Source: Paraspadella gotoi
Taxonomy: Eukaryota > Animalia > Chaetognatha
Length of the DNA stretch: 64,000 nt
Assembly (NCBI GenBank): GCA_051294375.1
Contig: CM119264.1
Coordinates: 16,837,245 to 16,901,244, forward strand
Direction of reading: 5' to 3'
Shown here piece after piece: positions 23,843-53,175 of the stretch (position 1 is its first letter; the number at the start of each line of letters is the position of its first letter). Below the pieces are notes generated by a model. The model had not been told where the DNA came from. It searched no databases and saw only the letters and a list, made by a program, of their open reading frames with translations. Made by a program: the position numbers and the translations under genes.

Positions 23843-26797
23843 TCACTGTGAAAACTCGATGTCGACAATTTCCCAATTTCCGTCGCCAATGAGTCTCAAT
23901 TCACGCTTATGAAATTTTCTCAAAGTGGTTCGGTGGCCGACGCTCAGGAACGTCGTCCCTCTGTTCTGGCAGAGACGGTAAAGATGTTCCTCGGTTTCCT
24001 CGTCCATAGATGATGTCGCCTCGTCTACGATGGCGAACAACGGATTGTGGTAGAGAACTCGAGCGAAACCAAGCTTTTGTTTTTCGCCTGTAATGAGAAG
24101 AGCGACGAGGGATTATCATCTAATTGTGGTACTTTGTAAAATTAGGCGCGAGCAATCGCGACAGCTAATTAAAGCAAACATTTAATACAATAACCTCTAG
24201 AAAGGGTAGCCGTCCAAGAGCCATTCCGGGATTGACTCCTCAAATGATCCAGGCCGGCCGACTTCAGTGCTTCCACGGCTTTTTCCTCGTCAATTCTTTC
24301 TACAGACGATGGAATTCTCAGTTCCGAGATAAGGCTAGAGGCGGCGGGATCGTCGAGGATGTAAGGCGACTGAGGGAGGACGACGACGTAGCGTGGGTTT
24401 CGAAAATTCAAAGGCCATTTGAGCGCTGAATAATCCTGATAATGAAGAAAAAGGATTTGAAAGACGGAGGCGGGAACTAGTAACCACGAAGCTTTCAATC
24501 AAGCTAGACATCTTAGGCTTAGTTTAGCCAATCTCCGAGAGACCACATCAATGAAGTAATTTAGTTTTTTAAAACTGTGATATAAGGACCAAACTTATAC
24601 AGTCAGACATCACCAGCACCAAAATACAAGGGGCTGACCAAGTTTTAGTAGATCAGTACTTACCCCGATGTGAGGCCAAAGCCCGAATAAGGATCGCAAC
24701 AGTGAGCTTTTGCCGACTCCGCTCGGACCACTGACGAGAATATCGCATCCTTTCGTAGCAAAAACAAAATGTTTAATAATCGTTTAAAGATGATAGCGCC
24801 GTCAATTATCCAGTTACTACCTTTGGAAAGTTCAAAATCGAGATCTTTGACTAAGAATGATCGTCCTCCCGCTACCCCGATTCCGTTCGTGTTGGCAGAC
24901 TTGTCTGCGTCGGCAGGGATATCGCAAGAGAACTTCCTGAGGACGAAAGCGACCTCAAAAAGATCACCTCCCGGTATAGGGTAAACCACTGTCTGGGAAT
25001 CGACCACGCTATGGTGGAGCCGAGCAGAATCCTCGAGGAAATCGGATCCGACTTCTAATTTGACGAGATGGTCGGTAGAGGAAAAGGCGTCTTCGTTGTC
25101 CTTTTCCTCATCGTCCTGAAAACGTTCCGGCTCGAGAGCGAGAACTTCCAATAGTTGAGCGACGCGGTGAGCGTTGCCAGCCGCGTAAGAGATCTTGGAA
25201 GCGATATCAACCAGTGAGCTGTGAAACCCAGAAAGCGATTTAAAAAGCGTTTAAATAAAAGTTTAATACGTGAAATAAACGATTCCGTCCTTTACCTGAA
25301 CGACGACAGCAGCATAATACAAACGAATCCGTTTTTGCTAATCACTTCTGTGAGTTCTGGTCCCGTCATATCTTTATAATGTCCGTTAAAGATCGGAATG
25401 GATATCACTAAATAGCTGGGTATTAAAATAAAAATGATACTTATCAGGTCCGATTCTCGTAATGGTAATCGAGAGAAAGAATTTTCACTTCTTTTGCTTC
25501 TTTAAAACTCAACACGTCTTCCTTTTTTTTCACTTTGGATTTTATAATTTATTTAATTAATTCATTTTTATTTTATAAGATTTGGCTTATATATATGTAA
25601 TTATGTATGCTTACCTTAGAATAGCGCCGACGTAGTCGAATGTGTTAGAGGAAAAGTTAAGTCCAAACTGCCAAAGGAAGAGACGACGTTGTATGCGGAG
25701 AAGATTGAGAAAACTGGCGTCGGTTTTGCGGCGCTCCTCTACTCCAGCCCGGTAGAAAGCCATGCTCTCTGACTGAAGAGAAGCGAAGACGAATCACGTC
25801 GGTTATTTATCAAAGTAAAAAATAAATGAAAAATGAACTAGGACGCCTTTGCTGAGAATATTTAGAAAACTGCTAGCAATGAACAAATTGGTGAAGAGAT
25901 AAAACACCCCCCGTCAACTACCTGAGTCCTAGTGTTCATGTGCGCAAATCTAAAATGCCCTTCGCCCTTCTCTTGAAGAAAGACCCAATTTACGACGCGA
26001 GACATAAGTCCTTGATTGACGGCCGTACTGACGACGAAAAAGAAATATATAGACAACGGGCCGTACCAATCGGAGCTCGAATATGCTTGGTATGAATAAT
26101 AACCTAGAAATAAAGATACAAGTTTCGGCGATGTCATTTAAAGGAAAAACTAGTTTTCTTAGATTTTATACCGATCTTAAAGGGAGAGAGCAGCAAATCT
26201 GTCACAATTTCAGTGGCGCTGCTGCAGAATCTTTCGACATCCTGCGTCATTCTTTGATCGGGGTTGTCTACAGTCGATAGGTGATTGATGCGGAAAAATG
26301 TTACATCCTAAGATTACAATTATAAATTAATCAGCAACATGGAGATTGTAAAACGACTCACCAGTCACCTACTCGATAATAAAATTCGTGTAAAACTGCC
26401 ACCAAATTTTTTCGCCACAGCAGCCCGAGTATTTTCGCCACGAAATCTCTGGCGCTCTTGATAGCGGCCGTAGCAAGAACAGTCAAGATCGCGACCCAAG
26501 CCAATTTGGCGAAGGCAATTCGGTTTCCTTCGACGAGGACTCTATAGAATTTGCTCGACAAGAGTCCAGTAAAATATCCGGACACCTTGAACATTAAAGA
26601 GAATATAATTATAATAATATAATAATTTCGAAACAATTCTCCGACTAAAGTTGTTACCTAACCTCATAACCGACGGCGAAACTTAACAGAAGCAGAAAAA
26701 CGATTATGGCGGACGGAGCTCGGGTTGGCATCGTCAAGCGCAACAGTCTCGCTAACCGTCTTAAGAGCAGCGCATTGAGAACAAATTTAGTTTCCAT
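23843..26797 (-). CDS. ABCD4: ABC transporter subfamily D, ABCD4-like (lysosomal cobalamin exporter)
   Basis: DNPDQR motif (~26255), EG.FRF.H motif, Walker A GPSGVGKSSLLR, signature LSRGEKQK, Walker B IVDEATSSMD, SVGHR; short N-terminus METKFVLN... resembling ABCD4. Confidence 0.85.
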
Positions 26798-27906
26798 TTT
26801 TTGGGTTCGGTTTAAACTACAAACTTAATAAATAAGGATATTTTTATTATACCGAACTGGGCATGATGTCCACGTGGCTTTCATCTAGCTAGCCGATTTT
26901 TCCCAATTTGGGACCTTTTGCTAATTTCGATAACAAAGTCAACATGATTATTGAAAAATTTCGATGTTATGAAGGTTGCAGAGTTAAACGTTTGGACTAG
27001 AACTGTTAAAAGTAAAAAAACTTTATTATCTGTGGTTATCATCTAATTAAGCCTAACTAAGATTTCAAAGGCCATTTAACGGATATCATCGACAATAGCG
27101 GTAGCCGACCAAATTCAAATTTTAATGGGAACAGCTGTTAAACTAATCCATTATTGGTATTAATTATTGTGGTGAAATATTTTTTTGCAAAAATGTTCCG
27201 AACCATGAGTAATTCGCGAATTAATATTATTATATTGCTATATAATGTCAAAAATTTTTTTTAATTGATTCTGATAGAGCTTAAAAAGTTAAGCAAAAAA
27301 TATAATTACAACTTTTAAAATTTGATGTTTTATTACTAAAAATTAGTAAAAACTGTTAAAATCATCGGATGATAATGATGATGAATTTTTTAAGGTTTTT
27401 CTCAATTTAAACCCACTTATCATCAAAAATTTGGAAAAAGAATTATACTTTGTGTAGATAACTTTTCATAAGCTATTTGAATCTGCTTTTAAAAATAAAA
27501 AATTACAAAAAATTTTTTTGACATTTCCTATCTATAAATAAATATTAAAAAATTAATTACTAATGCTTCTTGCCATTTTAGAAAATTTTGCTCCATTGAA
27601 AGTTTTCTCAGAAATGTATGAAGTTTCATTTGGAAAGGTTCCCAAATCAAACTTCTGACCCACCCCATTGACGAAGTTTGGCTCTATCGACAATTATTTT
27701 AATGAAAGAAATTAAGATCGGCCAAACCCAGAGTTGAAAAGAAATTAGACAGACTAAGAAAGATTTCATTTCTTATATTTCTTACTTTTAAAACAATTTA
27801 GAAACATTTAACAGTACAAATTAAAAAGTAAATGAAACCGGTTCTTTTGTGAAAAGTAAATTAGAAAAAGCCAAAGAACGCCGCCGTCTTCTCTCCGTTC
27901 TTCCAC

Positions 27907-28187
<281 letters not shown>

Positions 28188-28272
28188 TTAACTTATCTTT
28201 TCAAATCTGAAAATTCAACAAGACAACTTATAAAATAAGAGCAAACAAACCTCCCGTTTAATTCGTTAAAGT

Positions 28273-31200
28273 TCAGACAGCAGTCTTGCGTTTGCTTTTC
28301 AGTTTTTTCCTCTTTCCAATAATTGATTCTTCAAGAACAGGCTCCGAATTGTCCTCTCTTTTCCTTTTCAAAGGCGCAGAAATCAAAACTTCAGGTTGTT
28401 TATTCTTGCTTTTCTTCGCATTCGATAACCCCTGATTAAGACCCCAGAAGGTGCCGACGAGATGCAAAGCCATTGATGCCGCCTTATTCAATTTAGGGGC
28501 CAACGGAATCAACGCTGCCAACTGAAGTTTTCGCTTCTCCGTGACTAATGTCTTCATAACCCTTCCACGAGACTTGTGCATCTGCGTGACAACGGAGAGA
28601 AAGGCTGCAACGGCGGAGGAATCGACGCCGGTCGCCGTCGCCTTGGCCGCTTCCTGCTCCAAATTCGAAAGGCAACAATCAAGAAGGCGGCCGAACATAC
28701 TTTCTAGCTCTCCGTCCGCGTCGTTGCTCTGTTTGCGGACGTAAAGGTTGAGAAGTCGATTAAAGAGAGCGACGAGCTGCTTGCGGCAGAAAGATGTAGT
28801 TTCGGCGTCCAAAACTAGGTCGGCCAGACGAGAAACGGCGCCGGCATCGACGATCTCGAGTTGGAAGCGATCGACGAAAGACTTAAAGGGAACGAAGTGT
28901 TCGTGTTTGAGGCTTTTCATCTTTACCACGTCCTCCAGATAAGAGAGGTAGGTTTCCACAACGGCCGACAAATTGTTTCGAACGGACGCTAGAAGAACCT
29001 TGACGAGAACGGCGCAGAGGTTGGGGACTTGGGAAAGCGGCGACGGATACTTCGCGTTGTCCTTTAGGATACTTTTAAGGAGGTCCACTCCATCTTTGTA
29101 CATAGAGGACTCCAGTGTCGGTGAGCCATGACGGAATTGGCTCACCTCTTTGATTATGCTCCTGATCTTGTGTTCCATCTCGGGTTTCGACACGAGCGAC
29201 GAACCTGTTTTTCTCCGGGTAGAGGCCTTAAAAATACGTAAAATGCATTTAGTTAAATATTTTAAATTAGATTAAATTCAAGATATTCATTACCTCGATT
29301 TGAACGATGGCTTTAAAGAGGTCCAGGAACAGCTCTCCTGGGAGACAGGGAGAAATGAGAGCAGGAACCAGATCTAGAGTGCGAAGACGAAACTTGATCT
29401 TGGATTCTTCCATCGATCTTTGTTGTTTGGCCTCCAATTTCTTAGTCCGCGCAGCCGCTTTTTTCGTTTCAATCTCCTGTCGTCATGTTCGGTTAAATTA
29501 GCTTAAAAATGTCAACTATTTCTGCTAGTATTTATAACTAGTATCAAATTTGACTGGTATCGAAATAACTCGCCTTAAAAACCGAGGCTATTTTTTCTTC
29601 GAATTCAAACATGGCGTCGTCGTCGACCTCTGATTCGTCGTCACTATCATTGCTTTCGACGAAGTCAATTTTCTTCGGCGCTGCCTTTCCCATTGCCGTC
29701 GCCAATTTCAGCTTCATTACCGCAAAATCGTCCTCCGTCGCATCTGGTTGATCCTCGTCATCGGCGTCATCATCTTCGTCATCTTCGTCGTCGTCATCAT
29801 CATTTTCGTTTTCATTCTGTTCGTTAACTTTTTCTCCCTCGCCTTCTTCGTCTTCCTCATCTGACTCTGAGGCTTCTTCTTCCATGACTTCGAAAAGATT
29901 TTCACCATCGGATTTTCCGGAAATGGCGTCAGTTATGACTCGTAGCGTATTTCGCGTGAAATACGGTAAAAGTAGAGGAAGTAGGACAGTGACGAGTCTG
30001 ACATTCAATGAATGTAAGAATATTTATTTAGGACTGATACTAATAAAATAATCCAATCTTCCGAGATTAACTTACTTCCTATATTTCACGCTTTCTCTAA
30101 GCAAAAAAGAGAGCAGCAGTTCCGTCATAACATCGACCCAGGGAATGTTAGAGTCGACCTGCTTAGAATCCGAGTCCTCTACCGACATACGAAGACCGCA
30201 GGCCCGAATGGCACAAATCTTAAGATCCGGCAGGGTTTCTCGGACTATATCCGAGTCAGTGAGCGACTGAAAAAGAGAAGTCAATGACAGAAAACATTTG
30301 ACAAAAATACCCGGCCTGACATAAGAAAATACCTGGAAACCCAAGACAAGGTAAAGTTTTTGAAAGACGTCGAGGACGGGAGAATCTTGTCCTTCGGGAA
30401 GCAAAGCCTTTTGCTTCTCAACGAGGTTCGCCAAAGCCATCGCTTGCGACCAGATTGTCGCGTTCTCGGAAGAGACTCGAGTCACGAAGGTTGAATTGTC
30501 AGCTATGAGGACATCAGCGAAGCGCCTGAAGACCATAACAAAAAGACAACTTTCAGTTAAATTGTCTCGGTTCCTCCCAACCAGAAAAAAGACTCGCCTG
30601 AATTCAAGGACGGCTTCGATGTTACCGTCTTTAGAGAGAATTTTTTTTAACAACGCGTTAAAAACAAACTCGCCAATCTTGTAGCCCTCGCTGTCTTCGA
30701 TAGGGGGCGCGGCGTGACTCAAAAACTCGTCGACGCCCGGCGCCAGGGCTGTGAGCTTCGTGCTCCGTCCGGAATCGGATGAAATGGTAAAGTGGGCAAA
30801 GAGAAAAAGTATCTGCAGAGCTTCCATTTCCCACAGCGAATTCGAGTTGCGATGAAGGCACGTCTGAATCTGTAAACAAAAACGGCAATGTTTGACTGGA
30901 AGATAGAACGAGAAGAGCGCAAGTTACGCATAGCACGGATATTAAGGGTTAATGATAAAAAAAATATGTAGATTAAAAGTGTACGGCTCCGACTGCCGGT
31001 CGGGGGTATTTAGACGACCGCCTTCCAGCGTCAGATCAGACTTTATTCTTTCCCTCCATTTTCACTCGAACGAAAAGCTGATTCGTCGAGCGGTAAGCGA
31101 AAGAGGGAATTAAGTAAACGTTGTAGGTTTGCGAAAAACAAAGCACCTACTTGCTGCAAAATCCATAAAAAACGTTTTTTATTGTCCTTGTGCCCTTCAC

Positions 31201-32657
31201 AGTTGAGGATTCGTAATAGCTCTTTTCGCAAAAGCCCCCATGTGCGTTGCAACAGAGACTGAGGAACAGCATGCAATAAGCGGCTGACGATAGCGGCCAT
31301 GCGGCCTCCGGAAGCATCTGAAGCCACGCTTTCCTGAATAACGATAAGTAATACACGTATAACAAAATACATATATAAAGTGCCAAGCGTTCGTTTGGTC
31401 TTGTCATCATAGAAAAATAAAAACAGGATTTATTAAAAACACAGTTTCTTTACCTGCTTCACAAAAGCCTCAATTATGGTTATTTTTAGCTCCTTGTTTC
31501 CTTCGTCAGCTGCGACGATATTACAGAGGGCATCTGTAACGTCTTTAGCCAGTTTACGGGAAGAATCTTTTTTGGATGATTGGTGGCACTTTGACAAAGC
31601 GTCTAAACCGCGAAATTGGAGAATATGCTTCGCCTAGTAGCGAGGGAGGACAGAAGGAAATCAGGAATGGCAATCGACCGCTTCGCGAGAAGAATTAACT
31701 CATACATACCAAGTCCGGAGATAAATCAGTCAGTAGAAAAACCTCCAAGAAACGAAGAAGAAGGCAACTTTTCTCTTTTCCTGGACAAAGTTCCTTGCAG
31801 AGCAAATCACTCCAGAACCTTTCAAGACATCCAGATGTTCCACGGGCGAGTTGGATAAATGTTAGGACGAGTTCTTTTGCCTGGTCGCGGTGATCCTTTA
31901 TCGTCATTTCCATAGCGGCTTTTTTGAAAGACTCGCGTACAAAGTCGGAACCAAAGAAGTCCGGTGCCGACAAATCAAACTTCAAATTGAGATCGGCTTT
32001 GAGTCGTTTCTTCGTAGCAACAGGATACTTCGCAGCGCAACTAAAAAGTAGGACCAACGCTTCGACGTCCGGCGCGGAACCTTTTTGTAGCATTTCAAAA
32101 ATAGGTCGAAGGGAAGGCCAAAATCGTTCTTTGAAGGACGAGGCCGTCGAGATGTTCTCTACGAAGAATCTCAAAGATTGCGTCGCAGATTTAGAAACTG
32201 TTCTGTCTAAGCGGCGCAGCTTCGTTAGATCTCCGAGTATTCTTTCGACGAGTTCATCGTCTTTGCCGATGCGGCCGCTTCTAATCAAAGCAGTCCATCC
32301 CGCGACTCGCCCAAGCGCCGGCTGGCGTTTCTCGCGAGCGACGCCGGTAATTTCGATTTCGGATTCGATTTTTTCGATGACGTCATCGGTAGTTAAACTC
32401 GAATAGTTTTTAAGGAAGACTGTGAGTGCGGCGGCGAAGGCCGTACGAACTTGGGGTCGGTCCGAGGCGAGACCAGCTACAAGTCGTTTCAGGGCATAGA
32501 CGGCTTCCTTCGGCGTTTGGGACGACTCGATCAGTTTGGCCAAAACTGCCTGGCGCACCTTAGCATCCTCGTGGGCGACAAGCCAAAACAAATCTATGTT
32601 TTCACTTGACAGCGGGGTCTGATTGTTTGATTCAGTGGAAGCTTCTTTGTTTGTCAT
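28273..32657 (-). CDS. MYBBP1A: Myb-binding protein 1A / Pol5-like nucleolar protein
   Basis: N-terminal YALKRLVAGLAS.R..VR..FA.ALT motif, PWVDVMTELLLSFL, long acidic tract with DDDAMF..E..IA..F, basic C-terminus. Confidence 0.88.
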
Positions 32658-32763
32658 TTTTTGCTTCTTAGTAAAGAAGGGAGATGGAAAAATCCTCTTT
32701 TTTTTAAGAACTAAGGAAACAAATCCGATAACAGACTAATAACGAAAAAGCCAGCCGATTTGG

Positions 32764-33768
<1,005 letters not shown>

Positions 33769-34022
33769 TTTTACAAAAGTTTTTCTTAGATTAACTACAA
33801 GGAAAAAGAGTCGTTCAATAAAGTAATTAATTCTCACAACATAAAAAGAGAAAACCTGTTAACGGTTAAGCAAGAAATTATCCAAAATACAAAAAAATTT
33901 TTTCTCGTCCTGAAGAGCTAAGAAAAATTCCTATTTTAAAATCTGGTTGCAATACAAAAAGCTTCAAAATAAATTCGGAAGCATTTCTTTTTCTTCCTTA
34001 ACGCAGCTTTGACGAAACAGTC

Positions 34023-34522
<500 letters not shown>

Positions 34523-34718
34523 TTTGATGCTTTTACAATAGAGCAACCGTTACTGACTTATCTAAAAAAAAAAAAAGAACCGGAAATACTAAACATTTTT
34601 CATAAATGGCATAAATATAAAAACTTTAGCACTTTTATTAAGAGAATCACAGAAAAATTCGGTAACACTGTCCGTTTCTCTCTCTCTCTCCTCCTAGTCC
34701 TCCCAGATGTAAAGGACA

Positions 34719-37592
34719 CTACATTCGACTAATGGGTCGGATTCCGAGAATGTTGAAACCCTGGGTCATGACCGCCGCCGTAGCTTCACAGAGCAAAAGA
34801 CGATCCATGTTGATCTTGACAACCTGACCAGTCTCTCGATCCTTTTCAACACAATAACAACTATCGTAGAATTCCGTGAAGGCGGTAGAAAGTTCGTAGA
34901 GATAATCGCAAAGGCTGTGCATAAGCAGATCGTCCAATGTACGGAGAACAATTTCGGGAAAGCGCAAAACCACTTTCGCGAGTTTCCATTCCTAACGCCA
35001 AAAGGAACGACGAGAATTAAAAATAAAAACGATATATCTTAAAAACCTCTTTCAAAAATTACCTTGGGATGCGACAGCTCAAAATGCGTGGTTTTGCAAG
35101 CTTCGTCTAGCTCTTTCTGAGAGACTTTGGCCAATCTAGCTATGGACCGAATTCGAGTAAGGGCATAGAGGAGGTAGGCGGCGGTATTTCCCCGGTCATC
35201 AAGCATCTGTGGTTATGAAATTTAGTCAAAAATTATTTTTTTACAAAAATAAGTTTATGCATAGATTTTCAATGATATTGCCTTATCGAACGAGAATACA
35301 TAATCGTTGTTACGGTTGTGGCAGAGGTCGTTGTACTTAATGCAACCATAGGCGACTGATTTCATCGCTGCGTCCAACTCGTCTGGTGATAAAACTTTGT
35401 CTCGTTCGTTCTTGATTAACTTTTCCTTTGAACGCGCGACTCCTTCATCCAGAAGATCAACCAGACGAACCTTAATCAAATATTTTATAATCAAAAATCA
35501 GTCAAGAAAAAAAAAAGGGAAAAAAAAAAGGCCGTCCTACCGTTTCACCAGAACGAGTCTTAAACTTTTTCTTGTCTTCGCCGAGCACAACGCCGAAACC
35601 GGCGTGCTCCACCCTCGCCGAGCACTCGCGATACCAGCCGATGTGTTTTGCCGCGTCAAAGACCAAATCAAAGTGGAGACCTGAGAAAATCCGTTATGGG
35701 ATTTAACAAGTTCGGTGTAAAAAACCGCGCCAACTTCTACCCTGTCCCGCGTCAACGATGTAGATGAGCCAATCTGCTTTCTCCTCGAAGAGTCGTTGCT
35801 TGATCGCTGCCAAGTCGGAAGTGTCGTAGGTATACCCACCGTCGGATTTAACGATGGTCAGTGGGACGTCGTGACCAGGAACGAAGACAACCTAGAGAAC
35901 AAAAACGAAAAAGAGTTGAGCTCGCGAAATAAACCCTCAATGAAGAGAGAGCCGTGGCAAGACCTTCCGGCCTTCGTCGATGATAACCAAGCCTTTATCT
36001 TCGAATTCCTTCACGACAGCCGCCATTCGATCCTGATAAAACGATTCCCCTCGTTCGACTATGTTTATGTCGAGTCGCTCGTAAATACTATTAAATTCCA
36101 ACCGGGAAACGTCGCAGATCATTGTCCAGGCTAAAATAAAATTATATATATTATTATAAGGCAAAACACGTAATCTTCCATTTTCGTCAGAGAACTCGAT
36201 TTTGGAAAATTAACAAACTATTTGGTTAGTAGTTACCTTTGATGATATCTTCCTCTTTGTTTTGAAGACGAACGACGCAGCTGTAAGCCCTAGATTTGAA
36301 CTCCTCTTCGGAGTCAAATCTCGCTTTGCTCTCTTTGTAAAACTTTTGCAAATCACCGATGGGAGGCGAAACGGTCAAATAGTCCGGAAATTTGTCCTTA
36401 AAACAGATTAAAATCCATAATTATAAATACAAGTGTAATTGAATTTGATTCTGAGGTCCAATGGTCGTTTTTACTTTTAAATGAGCGATCAACATTCCAA
36501 ACTGGGTACCCCAATCGCCAATATGATTCAGTCTCAGAACCTGATAAAAGAAAAATAGCCATTAGATAAACCTACCTAATCGAATAAATTCCCACACATA
36601 TAGCTTACCGAGTGACCGACAAACTCGAGGAGTCGACACACTGCTTCGCCGATGATGGTCGAGCGAAGGTGGCCCACGTGCATTTCTTTGGCAATATTCG
36701 GCGAAGAGAAATCGACGACGGCGCGGCGTTTCCCGGAGGTGATCGGCGGCCGAACGCCCTTGACGAGAAGCTTGGTCAGCTTGTCGGCAACGAATTCGCG
36801 TTTAAGGCGAACGTTGACAAATCCAGGACCCGCCACTTCCAAAGATTCCGTGACATAGTTGTCGGGAATCTTGGCGAGAACGGCGGCCGCGACGTCTCGT
36901 GGATTTAGGTTGACCGACTGGTTCTTCAACTCTTTCGAGATTGACATAGCTGAAGAAAACGAGGTTAATGGTTTTTGAGTCGCTTTAAATTTGGGCGGAC
37001 ACAACTAATTCTAATATTAATTTTTCATAAGTAAGCATTTATAATAGTCTTCAGGGCGCAATGAACAAGACTCCTTTCAAGTTAACAATTAAGTCAACAC
37101 TGACGACACAAAACGACGTACCCGAATTAAACTGATAGTCTCCAAATTTTTCGTTAGTAATTGGAGTCACAGATGCAGAGATTTCCGGAGGTAAGGACGG
37201 AAATGCCTGCCTCATCGCCGAATTGAACATTCCGGTCAATAGATCAATGAAACTGATCATGAAGTCGCCACTGAAAATAACACAAAAATGATTTCGTTAC
37301 TAATGTTGGATACATTTATCGCCAATGCCGAAATAAATCTCACCGCCTAAAAGGCGCACCTTCGTTCCAATTCCAGCTCGGCTTCGAGATTTCGTTGAAG
37401 ATGTGAGATCTGGTACTCGAGCTTTGCGTTTCGACTCTTGATGGCGGACAATTCGCTATCCGTCTCGTCGTCGTTGGTCATCAGTCGACGCTTCATTTTA
37501 TCAACACGATCCGAGACGACGCCGATCTCGGACTCGATCGCTTTCGATCGCTTCAACAAATCTTGAAACTCTTTTGAATTAACTAAAGACAT
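34719..37592 (-). CDS. RARS1: Cytoplasmic arginyl-tRNA synthetase
   Basis: [73 protein letters not shown]; N-terminal leucine-zipper extension of the metazoan multisynthetase-complex form. Confidence 0.96.
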
Positions 37593-37717
37593 TTTCTGGA
37601 ATAGAGAAAAAAATAATGCAAAAAGTAAGACAACTAAATCATAAATTCCTTAAAAATATTTAAAGGCTAAACACTACAAGGTTATTTTAAGTACTAATAC
37701 GCCAACGGCAGTAAAAA

Positions 37718-38537
37718 TCATTTTGTGGACGTGGAAAGGAGAGCCAAAATTCCACCGGCGCCGCCAACGGAGATCAAATAGTTAATGTGAGGGGTAAAAG
37801 TCTTGAAAACAAAAAATGAAGCTACAATAAATAGAACAAGAAAAAGAGAATTGTTGTAGAGAATAGAAAAAGTCGTAGCTTCGTAGTCTGCTATCTCGTT
37901 TTTCTTCCAAAGGATCCTCTCATCCTAAAAAATTTGAATTCAATTTTAATTCAACTGGTAATTTTTTAATGAATCAGATTCTAAGAGCAAAACAGAATGC
38001 AATAATAACCATCTTTACCAGTGACCAGTTTTAGTAAGAACGATTTTCATAACTCATAAATAATATTGTGTACTATTATATATATATTATTATATATTGC
38101 CTACAAGATATAAATTCAAGAGGAAATACCTTTTCTTTTTTGGCCATTTTCTTATCATCGGCCAATTTCCGCAGCATAAATTTAGTGATGTCTTCTTCCC
38201 GTTTTATGGCCACGTGATGCTTCAGGACGTGCTTTGACTTTTTATAAGCAAAGGCAACGAGCCAAGCCGAAACGAAAGTCATAACCAGAAAGAAAGGCCA
38301 CGACTGACGAGGATCTAATTGATGGATTCGCCAATACAACCAGGCTAAAAAAAATAGAAATCGATATTATACTACAGTAATTTAATTATTAAATGATATT
38401 TTCTTACCTGGAATGGCAGAGATGATGAAAGCATTTCCATAAAAAAGAGCTGACGATTTGGTCGAAACGTTTTGACTGAAGTCTTGAAGGAGCATTTCCT
38501 CCTCCTTAGTGAAGTCCGAGCTTTTGTGTTTCACCAT
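37718..38537 (-). CDS. SSR3: Translocon-associated protein gamma (TRAP-gamma), 3 exons
   Basis: [32 protein letters not shown] / WLYWRIH...KRE..I / [34 protein letters not shown]. Confidence 0.96.
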
Positions 38538-38859
38538 TTTTTAAGAGATCTAAAAGACTATCATCCAGAGATCGACTATCATGATTGAAAAAAAAAATGT
38601 CACGAGTAGATTTGAACTTTCTTTAAATATCAAGCTTCAAACCATTACTTTTCCTACAACAAAACAAGAAACTGTAAAACGCCAAAATTTTGGGACTAAG
38701 ATCGCTAAAATTGCTTGTCCCTTCGCAAGGCTTTAGGATGCCAGCTCTTAATCACACAAACCTTATTTTATGCGTCGAAAGAAACAATAAAAACAAAGTC
38801 CGGAGTCCGCTTGATAAAAATGGCAGACTTGTCTTTTATCCAAGAATAAAAAAATCTCT

Positions 38860-40116
<1,257 letters not shown>

Positions 40117-40253
40117 ATTTATATTATGTGTGATTACGCTTATAAGCGAAAATTTAATAAATTGTTCTAATGGCAAATATGTATAATTTGTATAATCTAC
40201 AAAAAAAAAAAAAAAGCAAATAAGTTAATAATACCTACAAAATTCAATACTTT

Positions 40254-43200
40254 TCATCGAGTTCTGAATCCAATAATTTTTTTCACGTCACAAAGTGTCC
40301 GCGCCGCGATTTCCCTGGCACGTAACGCGCCGTCGTCAAGAACGTCGTCCAAATAGTCTTTGTTTTCCAGAAGATTAAGCGTTCGTTTTCGTATAGGTGC
40401 CAAGTGTTCTATCACACTTTCACTAGTGGCTTCTTTCAAAAGCACCTTTCCATTCATTTCTTCGCAAGCCCGTATGGCTACGTCCCGCTTGAGTCCAGAG
40501 AAAATGGCGTAAAGATCAATAAGGTTGGATACGCCGGGACGCAGTTCAGGTTCGTAACTGTTCGCCCGAGTAGAGTCCGTCACAGCTTTTTTAATTTTCT
40601 CCCTATAAAACGCAATTATAATTTTAACTAACAACCGAGGATAATAACAGTAAATGTTTCTGCAAGTAAAAACCTTATGCTGTCCGGTGTGTCGATGAGA
40701 TGAATTCTGCTCATATCGTCGTTTTCGCTCTTGCTCATCTTTTTGTTCGGTTGTGTAAGGCTCTTAAGTTTAGGAAAGTCTCCAATCAACGGAGTAACAT
40801 GAGAAAAAAATCCCGGAGCGAAGGCGTTGTTGAAGGAATCTTTGATGTCGTTTGTTAAATTGACATGGGAAATTTGATCAGCCCCGACGGGAACATGAGT
40901 AGCTAAAAAAACGCCGATTGTCATACAGGATAGAGAAAAAAGTAAAGCAGAGGCAAATTAAGAGATTTCACCTTCGGATTAAAAAAAACTTGGCATAATA
41001 TAAAAAATTTAACCTTTAAAAAGCAAAATGTCGGCAGCTTGCAGGACGGGATAAATCAGAAGCCCCAACTGATGCGGTTCTTCTTCCTCAGAAGCAGCTT
41101 TGCTTTTGAACTGAGGTTGGTGGCGCAGCTTGTTGTGAGAAGTCAACGTGCCCAGAATCCAGCATAATTCAGAATGTTCGTGAAGGTCGGATTGTACGTA
41201 GAGCAAGCATCTGATTTAATAAAAAAAAACAAAAAAACGGTAATTACCTATAATATACTTGTCTAATAGGGCGAAGTGATGAAAGTTTGGAATTAAAATT
41301 TAGCAGTTATCTCTTGAAAACTATCTTATTAGTCGGATCTGCTTATCAGCAGATCCCGACTCTATATACTCACTTGTCGGTCCGTCGGTCCGCGCCCCCT
41401 CAATATTGTCGGGGAATAACTTATATCACGTCAGAACATCGAATTATGATAAATTATGCAAAAAAAAATGATGTCCCGTTTCCGTCGTCCCCTTAGCAAA
41501 AAACACCAATACTCGTGATTGGATGGATGGATTTGAATAAAATTTTGTGTGTGGATAGCTAAGTGTGTGATTGAGCTGGATATGAAGTTTCGATGGAATC
41601 GTCCAAGTGGAAATGATTTAAATGGAAAAAACAAAAAAAATATATTCACTATTTGAACACCAATTGCTCATGAGTGGATGGGCTGATTGACCTGGAATTT
41701 TGTATGTGGGTAGGAAAGTGTGTGATTGAACAGGAAATCAAGTTTCGATGGAATAGTTTGAGTGGAAATGAGTTTAAATGGAAAAAAAACAAAAAACCTG
41801 TTTCACTAATTGATTATGCTTCTTTTTCCTTTTATATTAAATGTATATGCAGGATGTATTAATAAATAAAATAATTAATCAGTTAATTAATCAATTAGTA
41901 AATAAATTAATCAATAATTAATTAATTAGTCAATCTATCCGTCCATCCGTCCCACCTTAGCAAAAAGCTCCAATAACTCGTGATTGGCTGGTTGGATTGG
42001 AATTAAATTTTGTGTGTGGGTAGGAAAGTGTGTGATAAAGCTGGATAAGTTTCGATGGAATCGTGTGAGTGGAAATTAGTTTAAATGGAAAAAACATAAT
42101 TCGCATTTACTAAAATCTTTTTACTTATTTAACAATAAATACTCTAATTAATCATAATTGGATGGATAGATAGAGTTGAAATTTTGTGTGTGGGTAGGAA
42201 AATTTGTGACGAAGCTTGATATAAAGTTTCGGTGGAAACGTACCAGTGGAAATGAGTTTAAATGAAAAAAATATGAGTCACATTTACTTGAATCTTTTTA
42301 TTTATTTTAACCCATGATAGATTGAGATGAAATTTTGTGAGCCGGTAGGAAAGTGAGTGAAGAAGCTAGATATAAAGTTTTGACGGAAGCAAGTTGAAAA
42401 AATGATGCAAGTTAAAAGCATAAGGATCGTCGCAATTGCATAAAAAGAGAGAGAGAGAGAGAAAGTGAGAAAGAGAGAGAGAGAAAGTGAGAGAGAGAGA
42501 GAGAGTGAGAGAAGGAGACAAAATAAAATAGAGGATATTTGTTTGTTTTGATAAAATGTAAACAAAACATTTAATAACTGTCCTGACTCAATTTTAAGGA
42601 CATCGATGATGACAAGCTAAATATAAATTATAATTAATTATTAAAATTAATTAATTAAATAATTAATCGATTAATTAATTAATCGATTAATTAATTAATC
42701 GATTAATTAATTATCGTAGGCGGATCCGACATTGTTTGCTCAAACTTGTTAATGAACACTAATCTCCAGTTATTTTTCTAATATAGTAGCCCAGTCAGCT
42801 TATTTTGAATATACCAGGAGAGCCACCGAAACTGACCCCAATAAAACTAATAGCTCTGTAACCAATTCGAATATAAATTTTATTGAGAGCGCAATACAAT
42901 CATAAAACAAGTTTGCATCGGACGAGCGAAATATTTCGAGATCAACATTTTACGCAACTTAACAATTCATTGATTATCTCTTCACCTTATGGAATTAAAA
43001 CCTCTACCATGATGAAAAAAAAATTGTCGCCGTTTGGAAAAGTCGGTTAATTTCATTGTCAAATATATTTTTTGGCCATTAAATAAGTTTTAATATGTAA
43101 TATGACCTCCCTAGGACTGAATAAAAATATTATTTCTCAACAGCATAAAATTATTTATTGCATACAATTACTTCCAAAAGAGGTCGTCTAACTGTTTTCA

Positions 43201-44472
43201 CCTCTTTTTGATCAAGAAGACTACTCATATTATTATTAATATTATATCTTTAACATAATATTTTTTATCAGATTTTGAGCAAAAAATGGTCTTTGATCCC
43301 TTATAAAGTAAACCAGGCTTGAGTTGTTGCTACATAATGTGATGATGCATTGTTTTTCCCTTCAACAAAATATTTGATTTATTTTTAACTCGTTTGATAC
43401 TTCGTTCGAAAATTAATAAAAAGAAAAAGAAAAAAAAACCGAATGATTGATGCGATAACGAATAATTGATAAAATAATAATTGTAATAGTAATTGATTGA
43501 GTGATTGATGTATTAGTAATTTAATGATCGATATAATAATAATAATTGAAAGATAGATGTAATAATAATTAAATATAGATATAATAATAATTGAATGATA
43601 AATATAATAATACTTAATTAATTATGGATGCGATAATAATCATTCATAGATACGATGATAATCATTCATTGATGCGATGATAATCATTTATTTGAAGTAC
43701 TATCCTTATATATTATATAATGTAAAAATTACAAAAGTTTTTTAAAATTTTTTTTAAATTTAAATTTTAACCGTCTAAATTTTATTTTCGTCGACCGCGG
43801 TTATGGTGGCTTCTGAAAAATCATTTAAAAATACTTATTTAAAAAAAATATTACCCAATTACCTTAACCCTAAACCCTCCTGACCCTAACCACTCCTATA
43901 TCACCCTTAACCCTAACCCCGGTCGGCGAGAGTAAAAGTAACCCGAATAAATTATAGTATTTTTATGGGTTTATATTTTGATGTTCTTTATGCAAATTTT
44001 ATTATCCAATCTCCATCTTAAGAGCGCATTTAAAAAAAAATTTCATACTTTTTATTAATTGAGGTACTACCTTGTGGGATCGAGACCACATCCAATCAAA
44101 GTGGCGACGAGTTCGTAAACACCGCGACGCAAGTCTTCTGGATTCTGTCTAACGGTGATAGCGTGCATGTCGACGATACTAAAGATGCTACGTCCATCGT
44201 TCTGGAAAACTTTTAAATTGTACACTTAAGCTGATGTAGGCGGATTAGCTTGTCAAAAGATTAAAAGAACAAGTTTCCACCTGCAGATCGATCCAATGCC
44301 GAACTGCACCTAGATAATTTCCCAAATGAATCCGCCCAGTTGGTTGTACTCCGGAATAGATCAGTTTCGAAAAGGCGGGAGAAGAGGCGTCGAAGCTACA
44401 TAGTCGGACGGGAAGATTTTTATATATCGTCCGCGCGACGTACAACGTTTGGCTCTTATAAAAAGTCCACAT
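40254..44472 (-). CDS. WARS2: Mitochondrial tryptophanyl-tRNA synthetase
   Basis: [56 protein letters not shown]; basic presequence-like N-terminus. Confidence 0.95.
41331..42750 (-). mobile_element. Helentron-associated non-autonomous element (reverse orientation, extra internal units) in a WARS2 intron
   Basis: Begins AGTCGGATCTGCTTATCAGCAGATCCCGACT and ends GGATCCGACATTGTTTGCTCAAACTTGTT, the reverse complement of the 22163 copy's termini. Confidence 0.75.
43790..43945. repeat. Short repeat with degenerate CCCTAA units; related copy at ~57810-58070
   Basis: Both end ...aaccccggtcggc(g/a)a.agtaaaa after runs of ccctaacc/cttaaccc; resembles Helitron/Helentron-type non-autonomous elements. 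Confidence 0.55.
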
Positions 44473-44637
44473 AATTTAAAATCTGATAGCAGAAAAAAGG
44501 AAAAATCTAGAAAAAAAAACAATCACGTTTCATCGAATCGATAAACGGCCAACGGAGAAAACATTTAGTAGGCGGTTTCATTTTTTTTTAATTAGCATGA
44601 AGACTACACGATGCAAACATGACTCATTCCACCGGCG

Positions 44638-46182
44638 TCACTGTATCACAGAAGAATGGCGTGAATTTTGCGTACTGCTAAGCAAGAAGTGTTTACAGAG
44701 TTCGTAACATGACCAGCTAATTGCCGTGGCAGGCATCTGCTGAACCACGCGAGGACGGCAACCCTTGAAAAACCCTAATTTAATACAAAGAATATAGAAA
44801 ATATATAATAAAAGAACAAGAATCATAAATACTAAAGACAAGTACCTCCGATTCCATTGGTGAGATACACGATCCTGAAAGCGTGGAACATTCCCGATAT
44901 TCTCGCTGTTCGCGTGTTGTTGAGTGAGAAACCGGGTCCCGCAGAGGTCGGCGTCTCCGCGCAATGAGGTACAGCGCAGAGTCCTTCAATTAAGGACAAA
45001 TTTAATTAGCACCTACAAATATTTGCGTGTAACCTGTAGTCTTTCATGTAGCCTATACAATCTCCACCTTGCTGGGTGTTGAGCAAAGTTCTGCAAACGT
45101 CTAGGGGCGTTGTGATGGCGGCGGCGACACCACCGGCCACCGCGCCAGAGACCATGTGTGTCATAGGATTGTATTTTCTTTCGTTATTTGTCCATTCTTG
45201 CATTTGTTCATAAATAACGAAATGAGAGACTTGGAAAGGGATATTCATAGTCAAAGCAGTGATGTAGCTTCGGTAGAACGCATGTACTCCTTCTGTCCGA
45301 AAAACCTAACGCAAAAAAAAATTAATAGAAAAAACCTAAGCAAAAACAAATAAGTAATTATTAAAAATTTCAGCATTACAAACCTCCGCAAAGCATTTTC
45401 GACAGTTTTTATACGGACTCTGGAACATCTGCATTCTTTGCTTGACGACTTCGGCGGGATTCATGACTGCGTCATGAAGCAGCGTCGCCGCTCCGCCTGA
45501 AATATATAAAAAATTAGTAATATTTTATGAGCGTTTATGTCCAATATATTAAACACCCATATAAATCATTAATCAATTATATAAAAAAATATTTCGAAGG
45601 TATACAAAAAATTTAAAAACGACGAAAGTCCTACATTTATGTATGTATTACTAAAGAAAATGCGTACCTGCAACAGCATTGGCTATTGGAGACTCCCCGG
45701 GTTTTCCGTGTAGCAATTTGACAGTAAAATCCCGTTTAATTCTTTCGTAACAAGCAAAGTACAAAGCATGGGCGGGGCCAGCGCCACAGAACACAGATTG
45801 CACTCCCCTCATGGTGTGCGGAAGTCCCTCCGTGGACGAAATTTTCCGCAAGGCGTCTAGGAAAAATGGATTCAAAGGGTTAAGAAACAGAAAACCAAGG
45901 AATTGAAGAAATACCTAATAATAAATGAATAATTGTAGCACCTGTTATTGACTTATAATTGGTCTCCGGGTGAGTCTTTATACACATCATCCTCGTCTTG
46001 ACGACGTCGACAGGGTACATTATGCAGTGTTCGGCGATGCCGGCCAAAGATCCCGCTAACATGTGGTGAGACATTGGGCTCTCGGGCGGAAGCGACTCGT
46101 ACGGGTCATCTTCCTCTAACATGACTACGTCAAGTTGACGAGAAGCATTATTTAAAAAGGAAGCATTCGGGTTATACTCCAT
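44638..46182 (-). CDS. Mitoferrin (mitochondrial iron carrier, SLC25A28/37 family)
   Basis: [103 protein letters not shown]. Confidence 0.95.
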
Positions 46183-46524
46183 TTGTTTAAGTCACACACA
46201 TCTGCCGTTTTATACCTGTTAACAAAGATTAAGCTGGATGTTTAAGAAAGTCTGGAAGTGTTCTGACGATAAGAATGATCCGCACATGACTAGTTTTTGT
46301 TTACAGTTTTTATTTCTTTTTGGCTTATGAAAGTTGAGGCATAATCCTTAATTTTCTGTAGTTGATCAATCTAAAATGAAATTAAGTGCTGTCGCTTGAA
46401 CTCTTTTAGACGAGAAAAAATAATTTTCAATTCTAACAAAATACGAAGGATCCAAAAATCGGGATATTTCTGAAAGGAATTTTTTTTCCATTACAAATTA
46501 AATTTTACTCGAGTTTCTACAGAT

Positions 46525-50166
<3,642 letters not shown>

Positions 50167-50357
50167 TTTGGATCCTTTTAACTAAAACTAAAATATAATG
50201 AAACAATAAAGAGCAAGACGGTCTACAGGGATTGGTTAATATAAACTACTAAGTAAATATTAAATGAAAAGGGAAAAATTACAGAAATAAAAAAATACGC
50301 GAAATTAATATGCTGTAAAATGTTTATATTTAAATTGGTATTCGGATTTATAAAATC

Positions 50358-53175
50358 TTAAGGATCGCTCGGTTTCTGGCACCCATCTCCAGAAGGCGAA
50401 CTTTCTTTCTTCGGTTCGTCGCATTTCGGAGATTCAGAGCTGTTGGCGCAGTTGGCGTTAGCGGCAAGAGGTTGCGCCACGGGAATAACGGGGGCGGGTG
50501 TCGCGGAAATTGCGTTAGGAGTAGAATCGAGGCAATTTGGCGTCTCGGTAATCGATTCTTCCTTCGATCCTGGCGCGGTGGATTCCTGCACTGAGACAGG
50601 TTGCTCAGACGAATCGCTCGGCGACGTTTCGTCAGGCTCAGGAGGTTCAGAAGGCGCGGTCGAAGGCGCGCTGGACAGCTGGTTTTGCTCTTCTACGAGT
50701 GTCTCGCGGGAAGAAACATCATCCGTAGTGTCGAGTTGCGACTCAGATGTCTTAGTCTCCGCCACCTCAGCATTTGACTCCGGCGGCGTCGGCATCGAAG
50801 GAGCCCCAGAAGGGATGGAATTTTGAGAGGCTTCCACGGGCGACGACGAAGAAGGTTCGGACGGCGTCGTGAGAGGACCGTTCGACGTCCCGGAAGAGGC
50901 GGCCGATGGTAATGCAGACGGGGTAGAAGGGCCCATTGGCGTTTTTGGGGGTGCTGCGTCAGGAATACCAACCGTCGAAGGCCCAGGGATAACTTCGTTA
51001 GGGGAAGATGCAGATGAAGTGCTAGTGGGACCCGCTGTGCTGGAGAGAACGATCTTAGAAGCGCCCGCCACCGCTAAAAAAATCATCTTAAATAGTAAGC
51101 ACGCAATAAAAAACATTTTGACGAGCAAGTACGTACCCATTGAAGCCCTTTTCTCATTATATGCATTTTTGATGGCATCACAATGCTTCCGATAGAATTC
51201 GTCGCACTGCTCTTTTGTTACTTTAAAGTCGCATTGCTTGCTATACTCATCGTTAAACTTCTCGGCTGCTTCCAGGAATTTTCGCTTTTTATTTTCGTGT
51301 TTTTCCTCTAACTGGAAAGCGAGAATAATTAATTAGTAATTGCAACATAAAATAACTTTGAGAAAGGTTTTTATGGCATTGTGGCAACACATTCACGATA
51401 GCCACCCGCCTGAGTCCATCAGCGAACTCCCGGCGTCGTAAGAGCGAGAATTCTCTCTTCCCACCAAGCGGTCTTGAGTTCGCGCTTCATTGGTGTCAAT
51501 GCTAGTACAAGGTGACACACGACAGCCCGCCGCTAAAAAAACAAGTTTNNNNNNNNNNCGACTAAAAATTTCATTTGCAAACTTGTAGAGATTTTTTCTG
51601 TAGTAAAGACCTAAATCATTTATTTATATATCCAAATTTTATATTGATTTGACTCGGCAATGAGCGGAGAAAAGTTGCCTTCAAAATCGTGTTTCATTTT
51701 AAAACTCCTTTTTTTCCTTTCAATCTGTTTGTATAACTTTTTAAATATTTAAAAAAAAAATTAAATATATGAAGAGAATGGCATAATTAAAAATACTATA
51801 ATTTCAAAATTAGCCTATTCATAATAACCAATCAATATAAAATTTGAATATATAAATGATTTAGGTTTTTACTACAAAAAAAATCTTTCAGATTAAAAAA
51901 ATCTGTATAAGTTTGAAAATAACGATTTTTTTTAGCGGCGGGATGTCGTGTGTCACCTTGTAAGCGGGACGGGAGATCTAACCCGCCTGTAGTGGCGGAC
52001 TACAGTCAGATCCAAAGTTCTGAAACTAGCAAATAACAGGCGGCAATTTGTCCTGTGGCACTAAAACATAATGTAAAAAAATTATTACAATCCCAGAAAA
52101 ACGATTTATTGGCAAAAAGCAACGGTGAACGATTAAGAAAAACTGAATGAAGAGAAAAACCTGTTGCAATTCGTTTTCCAGTTTTTCCTGATGCATACTG
52201 AGACTCTGAACCTGACGTTTTAGGATATTCATCCTTTGCGTTGTAACAACAGAACGCGCATCAGGGACCATAGATTCTGAAAAAATCTGTACAAAAAAAA
52301 ATTTGCAAAAAGTCTGTGTAAAAATAATTCGATGCCCATTTTTAATAAAATTTCGCAGTGAAAAACCTCGTTGACGAGAAGATGATTGCGAGAATATCTT
52401 GCTGATGCAGAGTGCTTGATAGAGAAACCGTCACTGTTATCGTCGTCGTCGTCAGCGGCAGGAATAAGAGCCACTTTTGGGAAGTCTGCGTTCTTACTGG
52501 CGGACTGCTTTTGATGCTGTGAGGACGTCGTGGTGGATTCGTCGTTGTTTGCAGTTGCGCTGAAACGAAAGAAATAATTAAGGATAATAGGGAAGACGGG
52601 GTGAAGCGCGCCAAATAAAAACCAACAGTTAAATTACTTCTTTTTGTCTCTCAGGTAAGCTTGATATTCCGCCGATTGATGATAGGCTTTTAGAGCGATT
52701 GCGTAGTCGGCCTTTTCGGCTTCCCATTCTTCTACCAATTCTTGTTTCTCTTCGTCAGTCACTTCCCTCCACATTGATCCCACGATTTTACCTATGATAA
52801 TGATTTAATGAATCAAAAACATTTAAGTCCCGAGAGTAACTTACAATTTCGGCAATCAAGTAACATTAACTTACCAATCTCCCATAGCTTGAGATCAGGA
52901 TGTTTTGCTTTGACAGAATCCCACACTTTTTTACTATACCGCATATACGGCATCAATGGTTTTTCCGGAGGCTTCGGGGGTTTAGCAGTGTGCAAAACAC
53001 TCGGCCTTGATCCCAACTTGGCGGGACTAAAAGCCGGACTCGCATTCTCATTGTGAACGAAAGGGCTACTCGCTTGAGAAGTATTGGAAAATGATTGAGC
53101 GTTCGCAACCATTTTTGTTGGTGTGAAGTTGTTCGAAATTTGACCAACAATTCGATAATTCATGGGAAGAGCCAT
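50358..53175 (-). CDS. SMARCE1: SWI/SNF subunit BAF57 (HMG box, NHRLI-like region, coiled coil, S/T/P-rich tail); start at 53175 or 53112
   Basis: [103 protein letters not shown]. Confidence 0.95.
51372..52030 (-). ncRNA. Candidate structured intronic RNA (~205 nt once the MITE at 51508-51960 is removed)
   Basis: GC-rich flanks of the MITE fold together: GCTAGT/ACTAGC spans the insertion site; GGATCTGAC/GTTAGATCT, TGTAGT/ACTACA, GCGAACTC/GAGTTCGC, GCATTG/CAATGC; ANANNA-like ACACCA and a 3' ACA. Confidence 0.45.
51508..51960. mobile_element. Tc1/mariner-type MITE containing an assembly gap
   Basis: TA|CAAGGTGACACACGACAGCCCGCCGCTAAAAAA ... TTTTTAGCGGCGGGATGTCGTGTGTCACCTTG|TA; same TIR start at ~56565; N-run at 51549-51558. 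Confidence 0.85.

What the first reader, a model, noticed from the sequence alone, without database searches (positions are those of the whole stretch)
23843..53175. Twelve-gene putative trans-spliced operon for translation and mitochondrial biogenesis
Seen: 12 unrelated housekeeping genes lie head-to-tail on the minus strand. Stop-to-start gaps are about 191 (SMARCE1-RPS5), 342, 165, 137, 322, 125, 196, 254, 106 and 100 nt (MYBBP1A-RPS28), too short for a 3'UTR plus a promoter; ABCD4 follows after ~1.1 kb that holds a repeat insertion. Acceptor-like sites lie just upstream of most ATGs (ttttcag before RPS28, ctattccag-aaaATG before RARS1, cttttag before SSR3, ttttttag before RPS26, ccttgtag before RPS11). 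Established: SL trans-splicing resolves operons in nematodes, tunicates, flatworms and other animals, and such operons are enriched in growth genes but usually contain only a few. Inference: this is an unusually long, functionally coherent polycistron (4 small-subunit ribosomal proteins, 2 aaRS, a nucleolar factor, TRAP-gamma, and mitochondrial proteins), possibly in a lineage where operons are undescribed.
Basis: partly seen in the sequence, partly recalled or inferred. Interest (0 to 1): 0.8.

Follow-up and report, generated by a model that had tools for sequence, protein, structure and literature searches.

The report
Eleven-gene arrow-worm housekeeping operon
Eleven intact housekeeping genes lie head to tail, 100-400 bases apart, in what is likely an arrow-worm genome, and RNA assemblies show a leader sequence joined onto one gene and spliced RNA running across three gaps, so the genes are likely read as one long RNA and cut apart by leader splicing, a process already known in arrow worms but here at an unusually large gene count.

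Summary
In detail: 11 intact minus-strand genes (SMARCE1 to RPS28, 27907-53175) with stop-to-start gaps of 100-402 nt; ABCD4 follows after 1109 nt. The animal is very likely a chaetognath. A spliced RPS26 contig carries a leader absent from the window, matching chaetognath SL2.0 at 13 of 16 letters in exact register. The nearest SSR3 and RPS26 relatives and one close RARS1 relative begin with published chaetognath leaders. Spliced contigs bridge 3 of 10 examined gaps directly and a fourth by length. Two junctions hint that the upstream mRNA ends at the acceptor AG, as in Ciona. So this is likely an SL-resolved operon, but not in an undescribed lineage: chaetognath operons are published (18% of genes, longest nine; PMC12460157). 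Eleven genes exceeds that and equals the Oikopleura figure (PMC3024270). A single promoter, the SMARCE1-RPS5 link and ABCD4 membership are untested. This scan already noted a nine-gene operon elsewhere in this genome (e1-10588163). New member of a known kind.

The parts
50358..53175 (-). SMARCE1/BAF57-like gene, 554 aa, 6 exons; likely first full cistron; acceptor-like AG about 10 nt before the ATG; 10-N assembly gap in intron 4
46525..50166 (-). RPS5, 213 aa, with a modelled 12-nt microexon and a GC-AG intron
46125..46215 (-). cis-spliced intron inside the RPS5-mitoferrin gap; removes an in-frame upstream ATG (46182)
   Evidence: joint 46124-46216 in X1
44638..46122 (-). mitoferrin-like mitochondrial carrier, 331 aa
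   Evidence: introns seen as joints; subfamily name recalled
40254..44472 (-). WARS2-like tryptophanyl-tRNA synthetase, 365 aa; 2.86-kb repeat-filled intron
   Evidence: mitochondrial type recalled
38860..40116 (-). ATP synthase subunit c (ATP5MC/ATP5G), 149 aa
37718..38537 (-). SSR3 (TRAP-gamma), 183 aa
37596..37597 (-). acceptor AG before RARS1: the SSR3 contig stops 4 A's past it; the RARS1 contig starts here with 36 non-local letters
34719..37592 (-). RARS1 cytoplasmic arginyl-tRNA synthetase, 670 aa, 11 exons
34562..34563 (-). trans-splice acceptor AG of RPS26, where an SL2-like leader is joined
   Evidence: loose end; comparison; leader absent from window
34023..34522 (-). RPS26, 106 aa
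33795..33903 (-). 109-nt stretch ending at the RPS11 acceptor AG; in X1 its end is joined back to its start through one non-genomic A (loop)
   Evidence: (table 5c)
32764..33768 (-). RPS11, 156 aa
28273..32657 (-). MYBBP1A/Pol5-like nucleolar protein, 1175 aa
   Evidence: DNA_pol_phi; link to MYBBP1A recalled
27907..28172 (-). RPS28, 64 aa; its X1 contig starts at 28206, the first base after the acceptor AG, and ends at 27658
27253..27679 (.). dispersed repeat in the RPS28-ABCD4 gap
23843..26797 (-).
   Evidence: no contig seen bridging to RPS28
54879..55343 (-). truncated tandem duplicate of the SMARCE1 5' end (HMG box only, about 132 aa, about 70% nt identity); possible extra upstream cistron
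55300..55900 (.). CpG-rich block upstream of the duplicate; candidate promoter (inference only)
   Evidence: CpG observed/expected 2.05 and 1.49, against 0.31 in the next window upstream

Best explanation
Eleven intact housekeeping genes lie head to tail in what is likely a chaetognath genome and are likely transcribed as one long precursor, which spliced-leader trans-splicing would cut into separate capped mRNAs at AG acceptors in the gaps. Shown: the layout, cis-splicing of the introns, a chaetognath-type leader on RPS26, RNA cover across several gaps. Inferred: transcription starts upstream of SMARCE1 (near 53.3 kb or at the CpG-rich block at 55.3-55.9 kb); ordinary leaders, not an operon-specific one, are used at each acceptor; much of each gap is the upstream gene's 3' UTR, and at least some upstream mRNAs end and are adenylated at the acceptor AG itself. 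ABCD4 may or may not belong. Confidence is for an SL-resolved polycistronic cluster; that all 11 genes share a single promoter I put at about 0.5.
For: Leader on the RPS26 contig: 13 of 16 loose letters match SL2.0 and 12 of 16 SL4.2 in fixed register, the 10 further aligned letters end on the acceptor G, chance about 3e-5 per leader compared; absent from the window at up to 3 mismatches. RPS28 contig starts at the first base after AG, as expected for a leader ending in AAA. Nearest SSR3 relative among 4 loci (L001, 85% identity; the others 61-69%) starts with the last 21 letters of SL2.0 exactly. Six of the 7 RPS26 proteins closest to ours (94-97%) start with translated SL3.2 or SL2.0, none of the other 113 of 120 do; 1 of 120 RARS1 hits starts with translated SL1. 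Single spliced contigs cross mitoferrin-WARS2, ATP5G-SSR3 and RPS11-MYBBP1A, and record length implies RPS5-mitoferrin too. X1 behaves as RNA here: ATP5G intron bin depth 1.8 against 278 and 649 beside it. Chaetognath operons are established.
Against: Only contigs, no raw or long reads: a contig across two genes shows no single transcript. A published-type leader is seen directly at only 1 of the 9 downstream gene starts of the tight block that were laid, and the tables are cut (12 of 636 loose-end rows shown; 6 of 37). At RARS1 the joined piece is not like SL1-4 and is unexplained. No listed contig bridges WARS2-ATP5G, SSR3-RARS1, RARS1-RPS26, RPS26-RPS11, MYBBP1A-RPS28 or RPS28-ABCD4. SMARCE1-RPS5 was never laid. 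Three of 10 gaps exceed the 250-bp rule of PMC12460157 when measured stop to start. Non-operon genes also get the same leaders in chaetognaths, so a leader alone does not prove polycistrony. L001 shows no RARS1 sequence in about 930 nt after the SSR3 stop, so gene order conservation is not shown.
Confidence: 0.8

Rival explanations
1. The run is two or more shorter operons or hybrid units: some downstream genes (for example the ribosomal protein genes, or genes after the 402- and 322-nt gaps) have their own promoters in the upstream gene's last intron or 3' UTR and are still trans-spliced.
For: This overlaps with the best explanation and only lowers the gene count per unit.
Against: The two longest gaps are among those crossed by RNA contigs (322 nt directly, 402 nt by record length); gaps are 19-35% GC without an evident promoter block.
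Confidence: 0.4
2. Independent, tightly packed monocistronic genes, each with its own promoter and short outron; the bridging contigs come from read-through or overlapping UTRs merged by the assembler.
For: Contigs are graph paths, not molecules (tool note); about half of P. gotoi genes are trans-spliced but only 18% are operonic.
Against: At two junctions upstream RNA reaches the acceptor AG, leaving no untranscribed room; 10 gaps sum to 1998 nt over 25 kb while introns reach 2.9 kb and carry repeats, so the tight packing is specific to the gaps.
Confidence: 0.12
3. The 109-nt loop and the contig stop at RARS1 are assembly or allele artefacts (a tandem duplication in the sequenced animal, a graph break), and upstream mRNAs end well before the acceptors, leaving true spacers as in C. 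elegans or Oikopleura. This rivals only the 3'-end step.
For: One run, one contig each; no DNA run of the same animal was available; AATAAA lies 77 nt before the RPS26 acceptor; the MYBBP1A contig stops at 28259, 52 nt before the RPS28 acceptor; the loop could equally be an excised spacer, which would put the RPS26 poly(A) site near 33903.
Against: The loop ends exactly on the acceptor G and adds an A where the genome has T; the SSR3 contig ends on the last templated A after AG; X2's RPS26 piece also stops at 33798 (weak); S. cephaloptera RPS14-PCNA has 3 bases between poly(A) site and acceptor.
Confidence: 0.4

Closest known systems
Paraspadella gotoi operons (PMC12460157; passages read; supplements searched)
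   Same: Same phylum, SL-resolved, housekeeping and protein-metabolism genes, ribosomal proteins in the longest operon, no operon-specific leader.
   Different: Longest reported there has nine genes with ubiquitin and proteasome subunits; this one has 11 (perhaps 12-13) and a different content. The leader variant seen here could not be compared with the three P. gotoi leaders: their sequences were not in the passages or PDF supplements I searched, and the spreadsheet (with Supplementary Table 1) was too large to read.
Spadella cephaloptera RPS14-PCNA operon and SL1-SL4 (PMC2481426; passages and section 12 read)
   Same: Leader family (SL2/SL4-like here; SL1, SL2, SL3 on relatives), poly(A) site almost touching the next acceptor.
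   Different: Two genes against 11; the leader letters seen on RPS26 are not among the forms in its Table 3.
Ciona intestinalis operons without intercistronic DNA (PMC1488885; passages and section 17 read; PMC7986045 section 25)
   Same: Same leader for operon and non-operon genes; hints here of 3' ends at the acceptor AG followed by A.
   Different: Ciona operons are mostly two genes, up to six or seven, and exclude ribosomal protein genes; abutting ends are proven there, only hinted here.
Oikopleura dioica operons (PMC3024270, passage read; PMC1488885)
   Same: Up to 11 genes per operon, ribosomal protein genes included.
   Different: 23-30-nt spacers, unrelated phylum and leader.
C. elegans SL2-type operons (as described in PMC1488885 and PMC2776167, passages)
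   Same: About 100-nt scale gaps, housekeeping genes of unrelated function.
   Different: Use a dedicated SL2; chaetognaths are reported to have none.

Membership tests
SL-resolved animal operon (chaetognath type) | Co-oriented unrelated genes with short gaps | tested here: met
   11 genes, gaps 100-402 nt
SL-resolved animal operon (chaetognath type) | Under 250 bp between gene models (rule of PMC12460157) | tested here: inconclusive
   7 of 10 stop-to-start gaps are under 250; 254, 322 and 402 are not, but UTRs, which RNA contigs show in these gaps, would shorten them
SL-resolved animal operon (chaetognath type) | Spliced leader joined at an acceptor of a downstream gene | tested here: met
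   RPS26 directly, 1 of 9 downstream starts laid; RPS28 indirectly; orthologs of SSR3, RPS26, RARS1 in relatives
SL-resolved animal operon (chaetognath type) | Leader not encoded at the locus | tested here: met
   0 matches in the 64-kb window at up to 3 mismatches
SL-resolved animal operon (chaetognath type) | Polycistronic precursor molecules | tested here: inconclusive
   3 of 10 laid gaps bridged by one spliced contig, a fourth by length; contigs are not molecules
SL-resolved animal operon (chaetognath type) | One upstream promoter, none inside | not testable with these tools
   no CAGE, chromatin or raw-read data
SL-resolved animal operon (chaetognath type) | SL RNA genes elsewhere in the genome (5S clusters, PMC2566580) | not testable with these tools
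   no whole genome held; no Rfam match in the window
SL-resolved animal operon (chaetognath type) | ABCD4 co-transcribed with RPS28 | tested here: inconclusive
   1109-nt gap with repeat; RPS28 contig ends at 27658; acceptor-like AG about 21 nt before the ABCD4 ATG
Ciona-type operon without intercistronic DNA | Upstream poly(A) site equals the downstream acceptor | tested here: inconclusive
   hints at RPS26/RPS11 and SSR3/RARS1, one run; MYBBP1A contig stops 52 nt short
Ciona-type operon without intercistronic DNA | Lack of AATAAA before the boundary | tested here: inconclusive
   AATAAA in 2 of 10 gaps, shuffles give 1.66, so no depletion can be claimed
C. elegans SL2-type operon | Leader dedicated to downstream cistrons | not testable with these tools
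   one leader seen in X1; papers report no such specificity in chaetognaths; relatives carry SL1, SL2 or SL3 on these orthologs

The most novel reading that the evidence does not exclude
A single promoter drives 12-13 cistrons (HMG duplicate, SMARCE1 to RPS28, ABCD4), longer than any SL-resolved animal operon I found in print (9 in P. gotoi, 11 in Oikopleura; searches), and trans-splicing itself makes the upstream 3' ends, which are tailed at the acceptor AG: a protostome convergence on the Ciona mechanism, with the 109-nt loop as a circularised or tailed by-product and RARS1 receiving an undescribed leader class.
Probability: 0.25. Interest if true: 0.6.

Novelty: new member of a known kind. 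Interest (0 to 1): 0.36.

Why it matters
[quoted passage not shown] It does not add a lineage or a mechanism.

Tried and rejected
No whole genome is held, so SL RNA genes, genome-wide gap statistics and the origin of the RARS1 5' piece could not be sought. Bin 33496-33794 has depth 0 although it holds RPS11 exon 1; a filter may explain it and I draw nothing from it. Contig depths were not used to rank genes. Rfam found nothing (whole window, gathering, 23000-58000, E up to 0.1): no snoRNA or SL RNA called. The 36-nt RARS1 piece has no source in the window (best 30-nt match has 11 mismatches) and a text search for two parts of it and the RPS26 leader gave 1 unrelated paper (listing only). No named chaetognath protein appeared in three homolog searches or the cluster look-up; placement rests on leaders. 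Nematode or tunicate origin was rejected because the leaders match chaetognath forms. AATAAA depletion is not significant. Two other chaetognath genome preprints have 0 occurrences of operon, trans-splic or leader in their main text (part 1 of 2 of the second also read; their supplements are closed). A search on intercistronic circles gave 3 unrelated listings. The species was not determined.
Full report
Observation. I read the whole window and built exon models by script. Twelve open reading frames lie on the minus strand between 23843 and 53175: SMARCE1-like (554 aa), RPS5 (213), mitoferrin-like carrier (331), WARS2-like (365), ATP synthase c (149), SSR3 (183), RARS1 (670), RPS26 (106), RPS11 (156), MYBBP1A-like (1175), RPS28 (64) and an ABCD transporter (638). 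Pfam supports each family on at least one exon (11 of 14 queries; for ATP synthase c and ABCD; the HMG match of SMARCE1 is below cut-off). Gaps are 191, 402, 165, 137, 322, 125, 196, 254, 106, 100 nt, then 1109 nt with a repeat before ABCD4. The 47 introns of the 11 tight genes have a median of 83 nt but reach 2860 nt and hold repeats, whereas the 10 gaps total 1998 nt. Acceptor-like AGs near the ATGs are stronger than in shuffles (1 of 2000).

RNA. One run, X1, holds 0.61 of the sampled words. It is only guessed to be RNA, but all 15 gene joints shown (of 128) and all 15 shown (of 21) have GT-AG or GC-AG ends, and a bin inside ATP5G intron 2 has depth 1.8 against 278 and 649 beside it. Single spliced contigs cross mitoferrin-WARS2 (piece 44281-44773), ATP5G-SSR3 (38408-38973) and RPS11-MYBBP1A (32161-32949). 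The 3096-nt contig has 811 nt left beyond 46216, more than the 309 nt to the RPS5 stop, so it likely continues into RPS5. For the other six gaps no listed piece bridges; the tables are cut, and contigs are not molecules.

Leader. The RPS26 contig has 16 loose letters behind 34571. With the 10 aligned letters down to the acceptor G at 34562 they fill the last 26 positions of a 36-nt chaetognath leader: 13 of 16 match SL2.0, 12 of 16 SL4.2, 5 SL3.3, 3 SL1 of Table 3 in PMC2481426 (chance about 3e-5 for one leader). The letters are not in the window and this variant is not in that table. Chaetognath leaders end in AAA, which explains why the RPS28 contig begins at 28206, right after the AG (inference from how assembly graphs branch). 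Against a uniform picture: the RARS1 contig starts at its acceptor with 36 letters that resemble no listed leader and have no source in the window. It may be a distant exon, a rarer leader or a chimera.

Lineage. No named chaetognath protein came up. But the closest SSR3 locus of 4 (L001, 85%) starts with the last 21 letters of SL2.0; 6 of the 7 closest RPS26 proteins (94-97%) begin with translated SL3.2 or SL2.0 and none of the other 113 does; one of the five RARS1 proteins that scored best begins with translated SL1 (1 of 120 hits); 0 of 38 SSR3 proteins do, as nearly all start at or after their own Met. I put chaetognath origin at about 0.95. The species is not determined. Two earlier notes on this genome reached the same phylum; they are unchecked AI notes and not counted as support.

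3' ends. Two signs suggest that upstream RNAs end at the acceptor. In X1 the base at 33795, the G of the RPS11 acceptor, is joined through one A (genome: T) back to 33903 at depth 227. The bin depth 1731.9 is reproduced exactly if the RPS26 contig ends at 33874, 30 letters into that stretch, as a 31-letter graph loop predicts (one fitted value). A tailed 3' end that mis-primed on the A run at 33903, or a circularised spacer, would both need a 3' end at AG plus A; a tandem duplication in that animal would not, and cannot be excluded. The SSR3 contig stops at 37592, the last of four templated A's after the RARS1 acceptor, where a poly(A) tail and read-through would fork. X2 pieces stop at 33798 and start at 28202, a weak second-study hint. 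Against: the MYBBP1A contig stops 52 nt before the RPS28 acceptor, AATAAA lies 77 nt before the RPS26 acceptor, and AATAAA is not depleted.

Mechanism. Most likely one precursor, or a few overlapping ones, begins upstream of SMARCE1; introns are cis-spliced; SL snRNPs attack the unpaired AG in each gap and cap the downstream mRNA; the upstream RNA is released at or shortly before that AG and tailed. Shown: layout, introns, one leader junction, RNA cover of several gaps. Inferred: the precursor, the promoter, the 3'-end step. Upstream lie a truncated SMARCE1 duplicate (54879-55343) and a CpG-rich block (55300-55900), so the unit may start there. ABCD4 has an acceptor-like AG but the RPS28 contig ends at 27658.

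Comparison. PMC12460157 (passages) reports 10,197 of 21,072 P. gotoi genes trans-spliced, 18% in operons, no operon-specific leader, enrichment for protein metabolism and a longest operon of nine genes with ribosomal, ubiquitin and proteasome genes. PMC2481426 describes RPS14-PCNA with three bases between poly(A) site and acceptor. Ciona operons mostly lack spacers and reach six or seven genes (PMC1488885; PMC7986045); Oikopleura reaches 11 (PMC3024270). Searches for longer cases gave nothing more, within a library that lacks most subscription papers. The P. gotoi operon table could not be read, so I cannot say whether this gene set is listed there. PMC2566580 (passages) places SL genes in 5S clusters; PMC2776167 was seen as passages.

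Verdict. A real, long SL-resolved operon of a known kind in a phylum where operons are described, and the second long one this scan has noted in this genome. Its length (11, possibly 12-13) and the hints of abutting 3' ends give moderate interest, 0.36.

Noticed in passing
window 37596-37597 (X1 contig): RARS1 contig starts with 36 letters unlike the window and unlike SL1-4; over 30 letters long, so less likely a widely shared leader; distant exon, rare leader or chimera.
   Followed up: partly
window 33795-33903: Loop in the X1 assembly: acceptor G joined through one extra A back to 33903, depth 227; tailed 3' end, RNA circle or allele duplication.
   Followed up: partly
window 44202-44280: X1 joint 44209-44281 uses an AG 8 nt upstream of the in-frame WARS2 acceptor, which would shift the frame; an unproductive isoform or an alignment placement.
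   Followed up: no
window 46125-46215: cis-intron inside the RPS5-mitoferrin gap; retention would add 20 aa in frame to mitoferrin. Its donor GT directly follows an acceptor-like AG.
   Followed up: partly
window 54879-55343 and about 54115-54260: Truncated HMG-only duplicate of the SMARCE1 5' end, and a second decayed piece read by eye.
   Followed up: partly
window 50033-50044 and 47667-49116: RPS5 model has a 12-nt microexon and a 1450-nt GC-AG intron holding two minisatellite arrays (about 47750-48660); not checked with RNA.
   Followed up: no
window about 16450-17900, minus strand: Class II aldolase/adducin-domain gene nested antisense in an intron of an SLC13-type sodium:sulfate symporter gene (about 12630-23200, plus strand), which converges on ABCD4.
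   Followed up: partly
window about 2100-9700, minus strand: Multi-exon gene with a RasGEF domain match.
   Followed up: no
window 61732-63307, minus strand: Two open frames (225 and 82 aa) with no convincing Pfam match, about 6.4 kb upstream of the SMARCE1 duplicate.
   Followed up: no
window 14740-15870: Long inverted flanks around a GC-rich core in the SLC13 intron, seen by eye; likely a transposon.
   Followed up: no
P0160-P0169, P0042: Marine metatranscriptome protein predictions carry translated chaetognath leaders as false N-termini, a handy tag for chaetognath sequences in such catalogues.
   Followed up: yes
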